In this document: piece after piece, positions 3,398 to 62,130 of the stretch | Layout of the letters: each line of letters starts with the position of its first letter | Position numbering within the stretch: position 1 is the first letter of the stretch | Assembly: GCA_951406725.2 (NCBI GenBank) | Contig: OX597824.1 | Location: 28,334,001-28,398,000, forward strand | Direction of reading: 5' to 3' | Origin: Octopus vulgaris | Lineage: Eukaryota | Length of the DNA: 64,000 nucleotides | The notes under the pieces: generated by a model | Seen by the model: only the letters and a program-made list of their open reading frames with translations | What the model was told of the DNA's origin: nothing | Databases searched by the model: none | Translations under genes and position numbers: made by a program

Positions 3398-4227
3398 AGG
3401 CCAGGAAATTTGGGAGAACGGAATAAGTCGATTGCATTGGCACCGCTGTTTAAGTGGCAGTTACTTTATCGACCCCGAAGAGATAGAAGGTAAAGCCACC
3501 TCAGCGGAGCTTGAACTCAGAACGTAAAGACTGGAGAAACGCCACTAAGAAATTTGCTCACCGTGCCGACGATTCTAGCACTTTGCTGATTTAGCTATCT
3601 ATACATAATATTCTCTTCTACTCTAGGTACAAGGCTCAAAATTTTGGAGGAATGGGGCATTCGATTTGATCGATCCCAGTAGGCAAGAGGTACTTAATTT
3701 ATCGGTCCCGAAAGAATAAAAGGCAAAGTCGACCTCGCAGAATGTGAACTCAGAACGTAACGTCAGACGAAATACGGCTACGCGTTTCGCCCGGAGTGCT
3801 AACGATTCTTATTTCTTTATTGCCCACAATGGGGCTAAACACAGGGGGGACAAACAAGGACAGACAAAGAGATTAAGTCGATTACATCGACCCTAGTGTG
3901 TAACTGGTACTTAATTTACCGACCCCGAAAGGATGAAAGGCAAAGTCGAATCAGCGGAATTTGAACTCAGGACGTAGCGGCAGACGAAATACCTATTTCT
4001 TTATTACCCACAAGGAGCTAAACACAGAGGGGACAAACAAGGACACACATAGGTATTAAGTCGATTACAACGACCCCAGTGCGTAACTGGTACTTATTTA
4101 ATTGACCCCGAAAGGATGAAAGGCAAAGTCGACCTCGGCGGAATTTGAACTCTCAACGTAACGCAGACGAAATACCGCTAAGCATTTCGCCCGGCGTGCT
4201 GTCGATTCTGCCAGCTCACTGCCTTTA
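3398..4227 (-). mobile_element. tRNA-derived SINE family A, tandem array of partial units
   Basis: Repeated rc of GGCGGCGAGCTGGCAGAA...GTTCTGAGTTCAAATTCCGCCGAGGTCGACTTTGCCTTTCATCCTTTCGGGGTCGATAAA with B box GAGTTCAAAT. The same family recurs many times in the window. Confidence 0.85.
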
Positions 4228-5944: not shown

Positions 5945-6675
5945 AGGGCAGCGAGCTGGCAGAATCGTGAGCACGCTGGGCGAAATGCTTAGCGGTATTT
6001 CATCTGCCTTTACGTTCTGAGTTCAAATTCCGCCGAGGTCGACTTTGCCTTTCATCCTTTCGGGGTCGATAAATTAAGTACCTGTTATTCACTGGGGTCG
6101 ATATAATCGACACAATCCGTTTGTTTGTCCTTGTTTGTCCTCTCTGTGTTTAGCCCCTTCTGGGTAGTAAAGAAACAGGTATTTCGTCTGCTGTTACGTT
6201 CTGAGTTCAAATTCCACCGAGGTCGACCTTGCCTGTCATCCTTTTGGGGTTCGATTAAATAAGAACCAGTTATGCACAGGGGTCTATGTAATCGACTTAA
6301 TCCCTTTGACTGTCCTTGTTTGTCCCCTCTATGTTTAGGCCCTTGTGGGTAATAAAGAAATAAATATTTGGTCTGCCGCTACGTTTTGAGTTCAAATTCC
6401 GCAGAGATCGACTTTGCCTTTCATCCTTTCGCGGTCGCTTAAATAAGTGCCAGTTACGCACCGGGGTCAATGTGATCGACTTAATTCCTTTGTATGCCCA
6501 GAAATAAAAAATCTACCATTGTTTTTCTGGAAACATGTACGTGAGTATCAAAGTCGACATCGGCAGAATGTGAACTCAGAACGTAAAGACAGACGAAAAA
6601 CAGTTAAATATTTCGCCCGGCGTGTTAACGATTCTTATTTCTTTATTGCCCACAAGGGGCTAAACACAGAGGCAG
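5945..6675 (+). mobile_element. SINE family A, one head plus about 3 tandem body units, then an inverted fragment
   Basis: Roughly 180-bp body units repeated at about 5993, 6178 and 6365. Minus-strand piece at 6552-6675. Confidence 0.85.
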
Positions 6676-30971: not shown

Positions 30972-32114
30972 ACCTATTTATTACTACCCACAAGGGGCTA
31001 AACACAGAGTGGACGAACAAGGACAGACAAACGGATTAAGTCGATTATATCTATTTCTTTATTACCCACAAGGGGCTAAACATTGAGGGGACAGACAAGA
31101 ACAGACAAACGGATTAAGTCGATTACATCGACCCCAGTGTGTAACTGGTAGTTAATTTATCGACCCCGAAAGGATGAAAGGCAAAGTCGACCTCGGCGGA
31201 ATTTGAACTCAGAACGTAACGTCAGACGAAATACCTATTTCTTTATTACCCACAAGGGGCTAAACACAGAGGGGACAAACAAGGACAGGCATAGGTATTA
31301 AGTCGATTACATCGACCACAGTGTGTAACTGGTACTTAATTTATCGACCCCGAAAGGATGAAAGGCAAAGTCGACCTCGGCGGAATTTGAACTCAGAAAG
31401 TAACGTCAGACGAAATACCGCTAAGCATTTCGCCCGGCGTGCTAACGTTTCTGCCAGCTCGCCGCCTTTACGCCCTGAAACTTACCACCATCATCATCAT
31501 GTTTTCCTCTCGTCTATGATATTCAATTCCTAAATCTTTCCGATAGTCGACATCTTTTGAATTTGTATATCCGTTCTTCCCCTTTCCTTGTACATTCACC
31601 TCGAACTTTCCGTGGAACAATGTCAGTAAAGAAAAAGTATCAAGCAATTTTTCTTGCTGTGCCTTCCCAAATATATAATAAATTCAATATTTAAAGGAAG
31701 GCGGCGAGCTGGCAGAAACGTTAGCACGCCGGGCGAAATGCTTTGCGGTATTTCGTCCGCCACTGCGTTCTGAGTTCAAATTCCGCCGAGGTCGACTTTG
31801 CCTTTCATCCTTTCAGGGTCGATAAATTAAGTACCAGTTACGCACTGGGGTCGATGTAATCGATTTAATCAGTTTGTCTGTTCTTGTTTGTCCCCTCTGT
31901 GTTTAGCCCCTTGTGGGTAATAAAGAAATAGGTATTTCGTCCGCCACTGCGTTCTGAGTTCAAATTCCGCCGAGGTCGACTTTGCCTTTCATCCTTTCAG
32001 GGTCGATAAATTAAGTACCAGTTACGGACTGGGGTCGATGTAATCGACTTAATCAGTTTGTCTGTTCTTGTTTGTCCCCTCTGTGTTTAGCCCCTTGTGG
32101 GTAGTAAAGAAATA
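30972..32114. mobile_element. Two divergently oriented SINE family A tandem arrays (30972-31468 minus, 31698-32114 plus)
   Basis: Plus array has 183-bp near-identical units at 31748-31930 and 31931-32113. Confidence 0.85.
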
Positions 32115-32514
32115 AATATTTAATGTATAGTTTCAGAAGTGAGCTGGCAGAATCGTTATCACTCCGAGGAAAATGCCTAGTGGAATTTAGTCCGGGGCCG
32201 ATGTAATTGACTTACCCCCACCCACTCCCAAACTTGCTGGCCTTGTGTCAAAATTTGTAACCGGTATTTAATGTCTAGAAGGCTGTGTGTCGGCAGAATC
32301 GTTAGGACGCCGGATAAAATAACTAGCGACATTTCGTCCGTCCTTACGTTCTGATGTCAAATTCAACCTAGGTCGACTTTGCATCTAATCCTCTCGGGTT
32401 CGATAAAATATTTACTGGTTGAATACTGGGGTCAATGTAATCGATTTAACACACACTCTCTCTCTCACTCTCTCTGTGTCTCTGTGTCTCTCTGTCTCTC
32501 ACTCTCTCTCTGGC

Positions 32515-55542: not shown

Positions 55543-57082
55543 GGTAAACAGTAAAAATAATTACAGACATGGACAAGAACATGAAACACTACAGAGACGA
55601 CACAAGAACCACAGGACGGGACATTCGAAGCCCTCAGTCATCAGTCAAGAACCAGATCATCTTAGCAATTTCGGCTGATTAATCTTGAGATTGCTCCGAT
55701 ATGGGCAGCCCGCCAAGGGAAATCTAAGCCAAGCGCATTAGATCCCCTGGAAGAAAGCTTCGAATGTATACAACACGAGGACGGAAAACGAACGAAGTAC
55801 ACGAACAAAAATACAAAATACGTGACACCAATAAGAATACAAAAACGTAAAAACAATAACGGTAAAAATAAAAAATAAACAACAAAACAAAACCAGGACG
55901 TAGGACAAGGGTCTTTCGACAGGACGAGTTGAGTATGGGGCTGGCTTATGAAGTTGTGCCTAATGGCCGCAGGGAGACGAACAAATACGTGTTGCTTCGG
56001 CGGCTGCTGGAACGAAAAGAGCGCTCAACAGCGGCTAGCGGTCACGTGAGAACAAAAGACAGGAGAAAGGGACAGATGAAAAGAGAGAGAAGGTGGACGA
56101 GGGAGGAGAAGAAAGAGACAGATCGAGGGGGCTGGAGGTGAGAGAGATAGAGAAACGTAGAAGGGGGGGGAAGACGGATGGAGAGGGAAAGAAAGGAAGG
56201 GGAATAAGGGAGGAGAGAGAGAGAGAAAGAGACAGATTAAGAGTCGTATCAATGCTAGAGAAAAAATATACTTATCGTATAAGGACAATTGTGGATACGT
56301 AGCCGCCGATTATATAGGTAAACAGTAAAAATAATTACAGACATGGACAAGAACATGAAACACCACAGAGACGACACAAGAACCACAGGACGGGACATTC
56401 GATGCCCTCAGTCATCAGTCAAGAACCAGATCATCTTAGCAATTTCGGCTGATTAATCTTGAGATTGCTCCGATATGGGCAGCCCGCCAAGGGAAATCTA
56501 AGCCAAGCGCATTAGATCCCCTGGAAGAAAGCTTCGAATGTATACAACACGAGGACGGAAAACGAACGAAGTACACGAACAAAAATACAAAATACGTGAC
56601 ACCAATAAGAATACAAAAACGTAAAAACAATAACGGTAAAAATAAAAAATAAACAACAAAACAAAACCAGGACGTAGGACAAGGGTCTTTCGACAGGACG
56701 AGTTGAGTATGGGGCTGGCTTATGAAGTTGTGCCTAATGGCCGTAGGGAGACGAACAAATACGTGTTGCTTCGGCGGCTGCTGGAACGAAAAGAGCGCTC
56801 AACAGCGGCTAGCGGTCACGTGAGAACAAAAGACAGGAGAAAGGGACAGATGAAAAGAGAGAGAAGGTGAACGAGGGAGGAGAAGAAAGAGACAGATCGA
56901 GGGGGCTGGAGGTGAGAGAGATAGAGAAACGTAGAAGGGGGGGAAGACGGATGGAGAGGGAAAGAAAGGAAGGGGAATAAGGGAGGAGAGAGAGAGAGAG
57001 AAAGAGACAGATTAAGAGTCGTATCAATGCTAGAGAAAAAATATACTTATTGTATAAGGACAATTGTGGATACGTAGCCGCC
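55543..57082 (-). repeat. Near-identical 774-bp tandem duplication of repeat family X inside (TA)n
   Basis: Units start at 55543 and 56317 and differ by only a handful of substitutions or indels. Confidence 0.92.
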
Positions 57083-57356
57083 ATATATATATATATGTCT
57101 GTGTGTGTGTATATATATATATATATATTTATTAATCAATATAGGGTGGCAAAAAAATTCTGTATAATTTCTTTGCCACCAGCGGCCTAGTGGGAAAAAA
57201 TTAAATAGTCATAGACCATTTATAAGTTCAACATCACAATCAAGGAACGGCCATAATAGGCCATTCACCCACTAGAAATAACAGCCAAAGCTTCAACCGC
57301 AAAATAACATTAATTCCGCAAACCAGGAGAAAATTAAAAAAACATTTACCCTGTAA

Positions 57357-57461
57357 TTTCTTATACGATGCACCGTTTCATCTATTGTTTAATGGTAAAC
57401 TAACCTGATTAAATTAAATCAAGCCAATCTTCCATAGACCCTTAGATTCGTCAGTAAGAAA
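57357..57461 (-). ncRNA. Type I hammerhead ribozyme, canonical core (copy 1)
   Basis: Reverse complement of the 57759-57863 motif. Confidence 0.85.
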
Positions 57462-57758
57462 TAGCCAGATCGGAACAGATATTTTCACGAGGCACTTCTG
57501 TCCCTGCCTCGGCAATATCTGACCTAAAATTTTCAAATCATCGCACTCGCGCCAAATTTATCGGCAGCAAATAAACATAAGCCGCCGATTCCATTACGGA
57601 ATCAACCAGAAAATTCATAATTAATCAATATAGGGTGGCAAAAAAATTCTGTAGAATTTCTTTGCCACCAGCGGCCTAGTGGGAAAAAATTAAATAGTCA
57701 GATATTGCCGAGGCAGGGACAGAAGTGCCTCGTGAAAATATCTGTTCCGATCTGGCTA

Positions 57759-57863
57759 TTTCTTACTGACGAATCTAAGGGCCTATGGAAGATTGGCTTG
57801 ATTTAATTTAATCAGGTTAGTTTACCATTAAACAATAGATGAAACGGTGCATCGTATAAGAAA
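57759..57863 (+). ncRNA. Type I hammerhead ribozyme, canonical core (copy 2)
   Basis: tttctta CTGACGA atcta [58 nt] tagat GAA ACGGTGCATCGT A taagaaa. Predicted cleavage after A57856. Confidence 0.88.
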
Positions 57864-58247
57864 TTACAGGGTAAATGTTTTTTTAATTTTCTCCTGGTTT
57901 GCGGAATTAATGTTATTTTGCGGTTGAAGCTTTGGCTGTTATTTCTAGTGGGTGAATGGCCTATTATGGCCGTTCCTTGATTGTGATGTTGAACTTATAA
58001 ATGGTCTATGACTATTTAATTTTTTCCCACTAGGCCGCTGGTGGCAAAGAAATTCTACAGAATTTTTTTGCCACCCTATATTGATTAATTATGAATTTTC
58101 TGGTTGATTCCGTAATGGAATCGGCGGCTTATATTTATTTGCTGCCGATAAATTTGGCGCGAGTGCGATGATTTGAAAATTTTAGGTCAGATATTGCCGA
58201 GGCAGGGACAGAAGTGCCTCGTGAAAATATCTGTTCCGATCTGGCTA

Positions 58248-58352
58248 TTTCTTACTGACGAATCTAAGGGCCTATGGAAGATTGGCTTGATTTAATTTAA
58301 TCAGGTTAGTTTACCATTAAACAATAGATGAAACGGTGCATCGTATAAGAAA
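58248..58352 (+). ncRNA. Type I hammerhead ribozyme, canonical core (copy 3)
   Basis: Identical to copy 2. Predicted cleavage after A58345. Confidence 0.88.
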
Positions 58353-58890
58353 TTACAGGGTAAATGTTTTTTTAATTTTCTCCTGGTTTGCGGAATTAAT
58401 GTTATTTTGCGGTTGAAGCTTTGGCTGTTATTTCTAGTGGGTGAATGGCCTATTATGGCCGTTCCTTGATTGTGATATATATATATATATGTAAGTGGAG
58501 GCGCAATGGCCCAGTGGTTAGGGTAGCGGACTCGCGGTCGTAGGCTCGCGGTTTCGATTCCTAGACCGGGCGTTGTGAGTGTTTATTGAGCGAAGACACA
58601 TAAAGCTCCATGAGGCTCCGGCAGGGTGGTGGTTGCGATCCCTGCTGTACACTTTCGCCACAACTTTCTCTCACTCTTTCTTCTGTTGGCCTGCTCGCTT
58701 AGCCAGCGAGGTGGCGTCATTTGAAGGCTAAAACACTGCGAAGCGCATTGTGACCAGCGATGTGTAGCTACATCTGATAGCCTGGTCGGTCACGGGGATC
58801 ACGGTGATGTATGTATAGAGAAAGAGAGAAAGAGAGAGAGAGAGGTGTACTTGCATAGCAAGTGACTTGCTCTGAGATCGTGTGCTGGAA

Positions 58891-59183: not shown

Positions 59184-59228
59184 TATAAATATATAGTTTC
59201 GAAATTCTGTGAATGTATATAGATCAGT

Positions 59229-60129
59229 ATATCAGTTGAATAACGTTTAATCATAGTCTGGTTTTTACGTTTTTTATTATGGAATTTTAACAAAATTAGC
59301 GCTTTCACACATGATGTACTCATCAGATTTCAAATGTGTTAAACTGACAGTTGAGTTCTTATCAACTTTAGTACCTCTTAGAGCAGTCCAACCAGCTGAG
59401 TTTTAGAATATCCTTTTGATCAATCCGCATGCTCATAAAAATCATGGTTTTCCAGGCATACCGATATTCTGTAACATATTTATATTTATTAATCCAGATT
59501 ATTAACTGGTTGTTATATTATTGCTGTTATTTCATTTCAGAACAGATTCGAACATTATAATAAATCGTTTTACTTTTATCTTCCTTCCAACCTCACTTGC
59601 GTCATGTAGTTTGTGTAAAGGAAAAATTATATACATTTTCTAACCACATGCCTCTATATGTTTGCTCGGTGTTCCGGATTTCTTGTCTGTGGACTCGTGA
59701 GCGTTCCGATAATGCATTCTCTGTTTCGCCTACATATAATAACTCGCAATTCGGACATTTAAGGCAGTAGATCAACTTTCTGCTTTTCAGTTCATATCTG
59801 AATTTGCGAAAATCTGTTCATTTTCTTGTTCTAATGGATCTACATATATGAGTGTATTGACACGTTCCACATCTGTTATCATTACACTTCAATACTATTA
59901 ATGCAAAACCGCCATTTTTAAGAGTATGCGGATTGATCAAAAGATATTTTTTTAAATTCACCTGGTTGGAGCGTTCTAAGAGGTGCTACAGTTGTCAAGA
60001 ACTCAACTGTCAGTTAAACACATTTGAAATCTGATGCGTACATCATGTATGAAAGCGCTAAATATGTTAAAATACCAAAATATAAAGTGTTAAAACCATA
60101 CTAAGTTTTAACTTTATTCCACTGATTTA
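59229..60129 (-). mobile_element. Penelope-like element 3' remnant: GIY-YIG endonuclease fragment, terminal repeat with HHR, and inverted terminal repeat
   Basis: Minus about 59790-59540 reads SRKLIYCLKCPNCELLYVGETENALSERSRVHRQEI..SKHIEACG. Inverted arms 59229-59442 and 59913-60129. HHR at 59291-59332 (minus): aaat CTGATGA gtaca tca tgtgt GAA AGCGCT A attt. Confidence 0.88.
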
Positions 60130-60199
60130 TAAATATATATATATATATATATGTGCGTGTGAGTGTGTGTGTATGTATGTATTAATTATATATATATAA

Positions 60200-60767
60200 T
60201 AGAAATATAAAATTTCTAAATATATCAGAGAGATATAAGCAGTGGTGGTACGATAGAGCAGTTGTATACTGTCAACTTAACGTGAAAGTCCCATAAAGGG
60301 AATCACACCACCGCTATTTAGCCCTTGGAAGCAACATCGCTTCCTGTTCGCCTTGACACATTTCCTGTGTCCTTATGTTTACACGGGGGAGACAAGCACC
60401 CCCATCTAGCTAAGCCTGCAACCAGAGACTAGTTTCTGAGTCTTGGCTCGTCATCAGTATGGAGTAGCATGGCTTACTAGCCGCAGATACCTGTCTAGAC
60501 ATTGTAAACATATATAATTCCAGTGAAATAAATCCACTGATCACAAAAAATAGAAATGTTAAGTTTCTAAATATCTCAGAGAGATATAAGCAGTGGTAAT
60601 ACGATAGAGCAGTTACAAACTGTCAACATAACGGGACGGTCCCATAAAGGGAATCACGCACCGCTATTTAACCCTAAGAAGCATCAACACTTCCTGTCAG
60701 CCTTGACACATTTCCTCTGTCCTTATGTTTACAAGGGGGAGACAAGCACCCCCATCCAGCTATGCCA
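60200..60767 (-). repeat. About 351-bp tandem repeat (1.6 units) with a minimal hammerhead at 60422-60462
   Basis: Units start at about 60200 and 60551. Minus: ccata CTGATGA c gag ccaaga ctc a GAA ACTAGT C tctgg. Confidence 0.75.
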
Positions 60768-61341
60768 TATGTGCGCGACATGGTGATCTCATATCAAGAT
60801 AAACTGCACATGACCTTACAGGTGGGGGTCCCAGTTAGAATTTTCCTCTGGTCGAGTAACCCATCCCGCTTGAAACGATCCCTGAATAAGGGTTAAGAAT
60901 GTTGAACGAAACACACATGTTTTCAGAGGTGAATTATCCAAAGCCCAAAGAATCCCTCTCAATACATAGCCATGATGCTGACCCACAATTTCTGCTTGTG
61001 ATCAGAGTTGCACATATGGCCAGCCACTAAGGGACATGCTCAACTGGTTAAGGTCAAGCAAATGGCAAGCAAATCTGTGGTATTGAGCAGAATATTTGCT
61101 GTAGCCCATATTTTATACCAAGACAAAACAATGTACACGATAACACTTTCAATCAGTTAAGATTAGAAGCCATGAGAGCCACTGTCTGCTACTGCATCAG
61201 AGCAAATTATTATTGTTGTTGTTGTTCTTCTTCTTCTTCTTGTTCTTGTTATTGTTGTTGTTATTGTTATTGTTCTTCTTCTTCTTCTAGTTGTTGTCGT
61301 TGTTGTTGTTGTTCTTCTTCTTCTTATTATTATTATTATTG

Positions 61342-61387
<46 letters not shown>

Positions 61388-61406
61388 TATTATTATTATT
61401 ATTATT

Positions 61407-61439
<33 letters not shown>

Positions 61440-61443
61440 GGTG

Positions 61444-61474
<31 letters not shown>

Positions 61475-61499
61475 CATCATCATTATTATTATTATTATC

Positions 61500-61558
<59 letters not shown>

Positions 61559-62130
61559 TATTAAGGCCTGAAATTTGGTGGGAGGAGACTAGTCGGTTAC
61601 ATCTTCCTTAGTTTCTCACTGGTACTTAATTTATCAACTCCGAAAGGCAGAAAGACAAAGTCAACCTCGGTAGAATAACATATAGTAAGAAAATTATAAC
61701 AATAATAAATGCCCTAATGCAGTACCAGACAGTGGCTCTCATGGCTTCTGATCTTAACTGATTGGAAGTGTTATCGTGTACATTGTTTTGTCTTGGTATA
61801 TATGACGGCCTACAGCAAATATTCTGTTCAGTATCATAGATTTGCTTGTCAATTGTTTGACCTTAACCAGTCGAGCATATGGCTTAGTGGCTGAACGATA
61901 TGTGCATCTCTGAACACGAGCAAGAATCGTGGGTGAGTATAATAGCTATGTGTTGAGAAGGATTCTTTGGGGTTTAAGTAATTCGCCACTAAAAACATGA
62001 GCGTCTTGTCCATCATCCTTAAACAACCCTTATTCAGGGAGTTTTTGAGCGGGATGGGCTACTCGTCCTACCTGGGCCTCCACCTGCAAGGACATGTTTA
62101 TCTTGATATGAGATCACCAGGTCTTGAACA
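60768..62130. mobile_element. Two copies of an element of about 430 bp in tail-to-tail orientation (60768-61208 plus, 61705-62130 minus) around a trinucleotide tract
   Basis: Shared TGGTGATCTCATATCAAGATAAAC ... GAAGCCATGAGAGCCACTGTCTG.TACTGCAT. Both end in (TAT)n-like tails. Confidence 0.75.

What the first reader, a model, noticed from the sequence alone, without database searches (positions are those of the whole stretch)
57131..58476. Young 489-nt hammerhead repeat: candidate cephalopod retrozyme making a unit-length (circular) RNA
Seen: a 489-bp unit with no ORF of 60 aa or more in the track, present as direct and inverted copies that differ at only a few bases and inserted in (TA)n. Each unit has a complete type I HHR: 7-8 bp stem I, CUGACGA, stem II ATCTA/TAGAT enclosing a 58-nt insert with its own hairpin, GAAA, a self-complementary stem III and a UA cleavage site. 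Two same-strand HHRs lie exactly 489 nt apart. Established: tandem type I HHR repeats in animals (non-LTR retrozymes, Penelope terminal repeats) self-cleave to monomers that can circularise. Inference: read-through would excise 57857-58345 as a monomer or circRNA. The more-than-unit-length, permuted copies fit reverse transcription of a circular template by a PLE RT, and the GTCA microhomology fits a template switch.
Basis: partly seen in the sequence, partly recalled or inferred. Interest (0 to 1): 0.85.

Follow-up and report, generated by a model that had tools for sequence, protein, structure and literature searches.

The report
Penelope-pasted hammerhead retrozyme, two fixed ends
This is one young copy of a small, protein-free jumping repeat that carries a predicted self-cutting RNA motif; the kind is known from other animals, but its copies end by the same two-site rule as Penelope-type retrotransposons, which likely paste it, probably from an RNA circle that has not been shown.

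Summary
Observation confirmed: three intact type I hammerheads in a 489-nt non-coding unit, laid out as two back-to-back arms (570 and 780 nt) in (TA)n. The genome holds 657 exact hammerhead-core matches. Arrays reach 14 units, and none of 82 insertions runs into an RT gene, so this is a stand-alone non-LTR retrozyme, not Penelope terminal debris. Of 55 two-ended insertions, 49 have one of each and none has two alike. A young autonomous Penelope-like family here follows the same rule (10 of 10), matching the two RT start sites shown in vitro. An older 468-nt sister family (73% identical) keeps the catalytic core, swaps base pairs in all three stems and keeps both end sites, so the ribozyme is under selection. 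Cleavage, expression and circles are not shown, variant mosaics argue against pure monomer rolling-circle copying, and the partner RT is unidentified. The scan reported similar families elsewhere in this genome. New member of a known kind.

The parts
57131..57700 (-). Left arm, 570 nt (1.17 units): starts at unit position 153, crosses one hammerhead, ends at position 233 = 3' end site B
   Evidence: L070
57697..58476 (+). Right arm, 780 nt (1.6 units): starts at unit position 330, crosses two hammerheads, ends at position 131 = 3' end site A
   Evidence: L070
57697..57700 (.). 4-nt microhomology where the 5' ends of the two arms meet
   Evidence: 32 of 55 junctions overlap by 1-4 nt
57758..57864 (+). 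Type I hammerhead 1; predicted cut after 57856
58247..58353 (+). Type I hammerhead 2; predicted cut after 58345
57356..57462 (-). Type I hammerhead 3 in the inverted arm; predicted cut between 57364 and 57363
57857..58345 (+). Predicted 489-nt cut-to-cut monomer, 37% GC, non-coding; the reference unit for all positions here
57945..58033 (+). Structure around site A kept in the sister family: hairpin 57954-57975 and long-range helix 57945-57952 with 58026-58033
   Evidence: 89.7% of cells paired, 3 of 16 pairs with double changes
57988..58092 (+). 105-nt 'tail' between end site A (57987) and end site B (58092), with a 16-bp hairpin at 58040-58075
57110..57128 (.). (TA)n target, left
58477..58490 (.). 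(TA)n target, right

Best explanation
The locus is one insertion of a young, non-coding tandem hammerhead repeat (a non-LTR retrozyme) that was likely pasted into (TA)n by a borrowed Penelope-like RT/GIY-YIG protein, probably from a self-cleaved and re-ligated RNA circle. Shown by sequence: 489-nt unit with a conserved type I hammerhead; (TA)n target; two outward-pointing arms, one ending 131 and the other 236 nt past the cut; random 5' ends joined by microhomology; both arms carry the same haplotype; arms run through the cut site for up to 14 units; no RT gene attached. Inferred: read-through transcripts self-cleave, probably as dimers through the palindromic stem III; a host ligase closes monomers and small oligomers; a PLE protein dimer nicks both strands of (TA)n, one subunit starts reverse transcription at site A and the other at site B on the same RNA; each copies past unit length, drops off at random, and the two cDNAs are joined at their 3' ends. 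Some long arrays were probably reshaped afterwards by local duplication.
For: 657 exact core matches, reversed control 0. 82 insertions at 80 loci: of 55 with two outward 3' ends, 49 are A+B, 0 A+A, 0 B+B, 6 have an unclassed end; 127 of 137 3' ends abut TA; 82 of 140 arms exceed 500 nt. An autonomous PLE family of this genome shows the same rule in 10 of 10 inverted insertions, ends 137 and 169 nt past its hammerhead cut; a third family ends at 141 and 184. Frangieh 2024 (PMC11167929) showed in vitro that two internal RT start sites define the PLE tail. Differences per site: within arm 0.0061, opposite arms 0.0056-0.0062, between loci 0.0200. 0 of 138 5' ends lie within unit positions 485-5 (2.8 expected), so cleaved linear monomers are not the usual template. 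55 of 55 junctions are distinct and none of 26 open 5' flanks continues directly into an RT gene. Sister family, 468 nt, 73% identical over aligned columns: same core, both end sites, A+B in 8 of 10 two-ended loci; 8 of 13 and 7 of 15 hammerhead pairs change on both sides. Within the young family N7 takes all four letters while the other 12 core positions show 2 substitutions in 234 copies. Circles are shown for coral, mussel and axolotl retrozymes (PMC7229834).
Against: No cleavage, transcript or circle was observed. In vitro the anole PLE uses uncleaved RNA as its main template and does not need its hammerhead, and only 1 of 9 Xenopus retrozyme dimers cleaved. Stem III is barely formed in monomer folds (pair probability 0.01-0.05). 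Units within an array are identical in only 16% of pairs and show shared mosaic or period-2 variants (L034, L039, L052, L053), which one monomer circle cannot give. The covariation is essentially one contrast between two families, so cell counts overstate it; half of the loci were chosen with a pattern that fixes 6 of the 12 core positions. No PLE family examined shares sequence with the unit, and their tails are 32-43 nt against 105 nt here.
Confidence: 0.62

Rival explanations
1. Same element and same PLE mover, but the template is a long, uncleaved linear read-through transcript of a multi-unit donor array; the hammerhead is kept for another step and circles, if any, are by-products.
For: Uncleaved RNA is the dominant template for the anole PLE in vitro. 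Donor-sized arrays of 10-14 units exist. Four locus-private variants are shared between the two arms but not by all units (L048, L052, L057, L100), which fits an oligomeric template. Weak monomer stem III.
Against: No inherited inversion junction among 55 and no shared unique donor flank among 26; no pile-up of 5' ends at any position, as a fixed transcript start or a cut end would give; the core is conserved across 27% divergence in a gene-less unit. Three of the four shared variants also fit arm-to-arm conversion in hairpin register.
Confidence: 0.27
2. The unit is the pseudo-LTR of an autonomous PLE that I did not sample, and the arrays are its truncated debris.
For: Same target, tail rule and hammerhead-to-site-A distance as autonomous PLEs. 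Only 82 of roughly 330 insertions were read (estimate: 59 matches in 30 loci on C1). Xenopus retrozymes resemble pLTRs.
Against: Arms continue into further units, never into coding sequence; PLE pieces near 7 of 80 loci are separate insertions or lie apart (three were read base by base); the sister family is homologous over the whole unit and likewise gene-less at 30 loci.
Confidence: 0.07
3. A dispersed minisatellite amplified at the DNA level, with an incidental hammerhead look-alike.
For: Mosaic and locally duplicated variants within long arrays.
Against: Fixed A/B ends, (TA)n targeting, unique junctions, dispersal over many chromosomes and compensatory stems.
Confidence: 0.03

Closest known systems
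Animal non-LTR retrozymes (Cervera and de la Pena 2020, PMC7229834, passages read; Li, Clavereau and Pollet 2026, bioRxiv 10.64898/2026.07.22.740005, main text read)
   Same: Non-coding tandem units with one type I hammerhead each, GC under 45%, dimers to multimers, PLEs active in the same genome.
   Different: Unit of 489 nt, above the 170-400 nt of the expressed examples though inside the 51-972 bp range of the 2026 survey; 58-nt stem II insert. Inverted two-arm insertions, fixed A/B ends and (TA)n targeting are not described in the passages I read. Circles not shown here.
EN+ Penelope-like elements, Neptune type (Craig 2021, PMC8557442, passages; Frangieh 2024, PMC11167929, parts 1-2 of 4)
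   Same: Partial tandems, inverted 5'-truncated copy, tail at one end only, (TA)n bias, hammerhead upstream of two RT start sites.
   Different: No ORF; tail 105 nt instead of 30-40 nt; canonical core with a 4-bp stem III rather than a minimal variant; no sequence match to the three young PLE families examined.
Dimeric hammerheads of newt and axolotl satellite repeats (PMC4209133 and PMC7229834, passages)
   Same: Weak, palindromic stem III predicted to pair between two copies (-17.5 kcal/mol as duplex, -0.2 as hairpin; sister family -15.9 and 0).
   Different: Stem III here can form 4 bp with a 4-nt loop, so monomer cleavage is not excluded.

Membership tests
Non-LTR retrozyme | Type I hammerhead in each tandem unit | tested here: met
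Non-LTR retrozyme | Short non-coding unit, low GC, no protein frame; no LTR-type terminal structure | tested here: met
   489 nt, 37% GC, frames of 61 aa at most; array anatomy. PBS and PPT were not searched separately
Non-LTR retrozyme | Dispersed dimers to multimers | tested here: met
   657 core matches, arrays up to 14 full units on many chromosomes
Non-LTR retrozyme | Self-cleavage of the RNA | not testable with these tools
   Only fold and conservation
Non-LTR retrozyme | Expressed as unit-length linear and circular RNA | tested here: inconclusive
   Only contigs of runs not on record as RNA were available; contigs cannot show ends or circles
Autonomous EN+ PLE | RT plus GIY-YIG reading frame between pseudo-LTRs | tested here: not met
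   0 of 82 insertions joined to PLE coding sequence
PLE-type insertion mechanism | Two fixed 3' ends (tail at one end only), inverted 5'-truncated arm | tested here: met
   49 of 55 A+B, none alike; 10 of 10 in an autonomous family
PLE-type insertion mechanism | AT-rich or (TA)n target | tested here: met
   127 of 137 3' ends
PLE-type insertion mechanism | Homology to the pseudo-LTR of a named partner PLE | tested here: not met
   No match to three young families or to other GIY-YIG loci; many families were not sampled

The most novel reading that the evidence does not exclude
These insertions are a genomic record of a Penelope RT dimer copying one small ribozyme-made RNA circle from two fixed start points at once, one per target strand, by rolling-circle synthesis. 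The retrozyme would hold the two start sites 105 nt apart on a conserved fold instead of the 30-40 nt of autonomous elements, so RNA shape rather than sequence would recruit the enzyme.
Probability: 0.4. Interest if true: 0.68.

Novelty: new member of a known kind. Interest (0 to 1): 0.42.

Why it matters
Which enzyme moves animal retrozymes is an open question: the papers I read propose PLEs from co-occurrence and terminal-repeat similarity and say the repeats carry no motif that names the partner. Here a gene-less retrozyme bears the PLE-specific two-start-site footprint, and the strict one-of-each rule constrains how a PLE protein dimer engages one RNA. With at least three young PLE families in the same genome (two shown here with intact reading frames) and two exact predicted start positions, the partner and the circle model become directly testable in vitro. 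It is still a selfish repeat of a described class, and no host function is indicated.

Tried and rejected
Rfam scan: no hammerhead family hit. Sequencing runs: no RNA holder listed; contigs of four runs guessed to be RNA cover parts of the unit but cannot show strand, ends, level or circles, so nothing is concluded on expression; read support from DNA runs was not obtained. Cut-site footprint at 5' ends: none. Partner search: the unit and its sister match none of PLE-A (L141-L156), PLE-B (L173-L202), PLE-C (L233-L263) or 30 GIY-YIG loci, apart from separate retrozyme insertions nearby; a guess that PLE-C has a ~105-nt tail failed (43 nt). A degenerate pattern for diverged hammerheads found nothing but had one position too many in stem III, so it says nothing. 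Homologue search with the PLE-A protein confirmed a wide RT/GIY-YIG family but did not name the host. Variant register between arms could not separate oligomeric templates from later conversion (4 informative cases). Literature: searches found no paper on cephalopod retrozymes or on A/B ends in retrozymes; the supplement of PMC7229834 could not be read and the bioRxiv supplements were not seen, and either could list such repeats.

Full report
Observation. The stretch 57131-58476 consists of a minus-strand arm (57131-57700) and a plus-strand arm (57697-58476) of one 489-nt unit, between (TA)n runs. The direct copies are identical over 291 nt and the inverted arm differs at three bases. A motif scan of the whole window found three type I hammerheads in the element, with stems of 8, 5 and 4 bp, and one unrelated minimal motif at 59326-59297. 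Folding gives z = -4.1 for the ribozyme region and -7.2 for the monomer. Stems I and II form with probability above 0.6 in the local fold; stem III does not (0.02-0.04) but pairs strongly between two copies. No frame inside the element exceeds 61 aa. Positions below count from the base after the cut (57857 = 1).

Family. G000 has 2.8 Gb in 227 contigs. The unit gave 241 matches among 40 scored of 1091 candidates, and a 28-nt core pattern gave 657 exact matches against 0 for the reversed control. On C1, 59 matches fall in 30 loci, so about 330 loci genome-wide (estimate). I read 80 loci: the 40 best-scoring (biased to long arrays, own locus included) and 40 of the 44 further loci among the first 100 pattern rows. 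Hits under 25 nt, hits nested in longer ones and insertions under 150 nt were dropped before counting.

Ends. Of 82 insertions, 55 have two outward-pointing 3' ends: 49 have one end at 124-137 (site A) and one at 228-241 (site B), none has two of the same class, and 6 include an unclassed end. 127 of 137 3' ends abut TA-rich sequence, and 82 of 140 arms exceed 500 nt, the longest 6976. 5' ends are spread over the unit; 0 of 138 fall within positions 485-5, with 2.8 expected. All 55 inversion junctions differ, 32 with 1-4 nt of overlap, and 26 open 5' flanks share only common repeats. PLE coding pieces lie within 7 of the 80 loci; the three I read base by base are separated from the unit by their own ends and (TA)n. 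The window insertion follows the rule: left arm ends at 233, right arm at 131.

Templates. Units differ by 0.0061 per site within an arm, 0.0056-0.0062 between the two arms of one insertion and 0.0200 between loci, so both arms likely come from one RNA or one source. Against a pure monomer circle: only 16% of within-arm pairs are identical, several arrays carry mosaic or period-2 variants, and four locus-private variants are shared by both arms but not all units. Oligomeric templates, later local duplication or arm-to-arm conversion could each give this.

Selection on the ribozyme. In 234 copies covering the core, N7 is C, G, A or T (141, 73, 13, 7) while the 12 other core positions show 2 substitutions in all; six of these positions were part of the pattern that chose half the loci, the other six show none. 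A sister family turned up by chance: unit 468 nt, 334 of 455 aligned columns identical, alignment score 416 against 149 +/- 11 for shuffles, 85 matches in 40 scored of 2550 candidates, mostly at 84-95% identity. It has the same core, a GUC cut, different stems I, II and III, a still palindromic stem III, the same two end sites, A+B in 8 of 10 two-ended loci, and no attached RT in 30 loci (one PLE piece 1.1 kb away). Across both families 96-99% of stem cells pair and 8 of 13 or 7 of 15 pairs change on both sides; this is mostly a single between-family contrast. Two helices around site A are also kept (3 of 16 pairs with double changes).

The likely mover. The genome holds at least three young PLE families. 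PLE-A: ORF1 479 aa plus a 781-aa RT/GIY-YIG frame with a CX4CX2C linker, ~504-bp terminal repeat, tail about 40 nt. PLE-B: 775 aa, at least 141 copies identical over 273 aa, ends 137 and 169 nt past its hammerhead cut, one of each in 10 of 10 inverted insertions (the 169 site is followed by a TA run in the element itself, so it is a lower bound). PLE-C: copies 99-100% alike, ends at 141 and 184. All three end in (TA)n. None shares sequence with the unit, so the partner is not named. Craig 2021 notes the tail at one end only and the inverted truncated copy as PLE traits (passages). Frangieh 2024 shows that two internal RT start sites define the tail, that both target strands are cut and extended, that the protein is predicted to be a dimer, and that hammerhead cleavage is dispensable in vitro (parts 1-2 of 4).

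Mechanism. Shown: anatomy, end rule, continuity through the cut site, conservation of the ribozyme, absence of coding sequence. Inferred: cleavage, ligation, dimer engagement of sites A and B on one RNA, rolling-circle synthesis. The argument for a circle is that the ribozyme is selected, yet no copy starts at the cut and no donor junction or flank is inherited. An uncleaved multimer remains a real rival.

Comparison and novelty. It meets every sequence-level feature of animal non-LTR retrozymes and fails membership of autonomous PLEs while inserting like one. Those papers propose PLEs as movers from co-occurrence and terminal-repeat homology; I found no report of the two-site footprint in a retrozyme or of cephalopod retrozymes, but could not see the supplements. 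The host was not identified here; octopus is recalled from genome size and repeat style. Earlier notes of this scan describe similar families of 351-590 nt in the same genome and reach the same reading; they are not independent support. Verdict: real, well supported, a new member of a known kind with a useful mechanistic footprint; interest 0.42.

Noticed in passing
window 55543-57091: A separate young 774-bp unit, two copies 99% alike, minus strand, in (TA)n directly left of the finding. About 2720 candidates genome-wide; fixed 3' end, variable 5' truncation, mostly just over unit length, no PLE match in 12 loci. It carries CUGAUGA and GAAA words in an order that did not fit a standard hammerhead; it may be a rearranged one.
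   Followed up: partly
window 59326-59297 (-) and 60031-60062 (+): Minimal type I hammerhead with palindromic stem III, and a decayed inverted copy, inside inverted arms 59213-59411 and 59946-60144 (82%); a weak PLE endonuclease remnant at 59784-59665. Likely an old two-armed PLE insertion.
   Followed up: partly
L141-L156, L173-L202, L233-L263: Three very young PLE families; PLE-A and PLE-B have an upstream ORF1 (479 and 454 aa; the 479-aa one has no Pfam hit) before the RT/GIY-YIG frame. Their hammerhead-like motifs have variant cores (U3-A8 in PLE-A and PLE-C, C4 in PLE-B).
   Followed up: partly
L196:7460-7996 (-), L203-L232: Older 468-nt sister retrozyme family, about 2550 candidates, several subfamilies with different stem II insert lengths.
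   Followed up: yes
L119:131-208 and 455-532; L149:2554-2633; L153:1941-1999; L114:633-690: Further unrelated type I hammerheads with long stem II inserts, one as an inverted pair; probably more retrozyme families.
   Followed up: no
L052 (G000:C1, 173.13 Mb): Two private variants alternate unit by unit along one arm and one recurs in the other arm, as a 978-nt dimer template would give.
   Followed up: partly
window 58497-58830: Very abundant SINE-like repeat directly right of the insertion; far deeper in the laid contigs than the retrozyme.
   Followed up: no
window 60198-60766; 3810-4176, 5996-6492, 31047-31419, 31747-32121; 61021-61893: A ~351-bp two-copy tandem (88%), several 183-185-bp tandem repeats, and a 184-bp inverted pair; not examined for ribozymes beyond the loose scan.
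   Followed up: no
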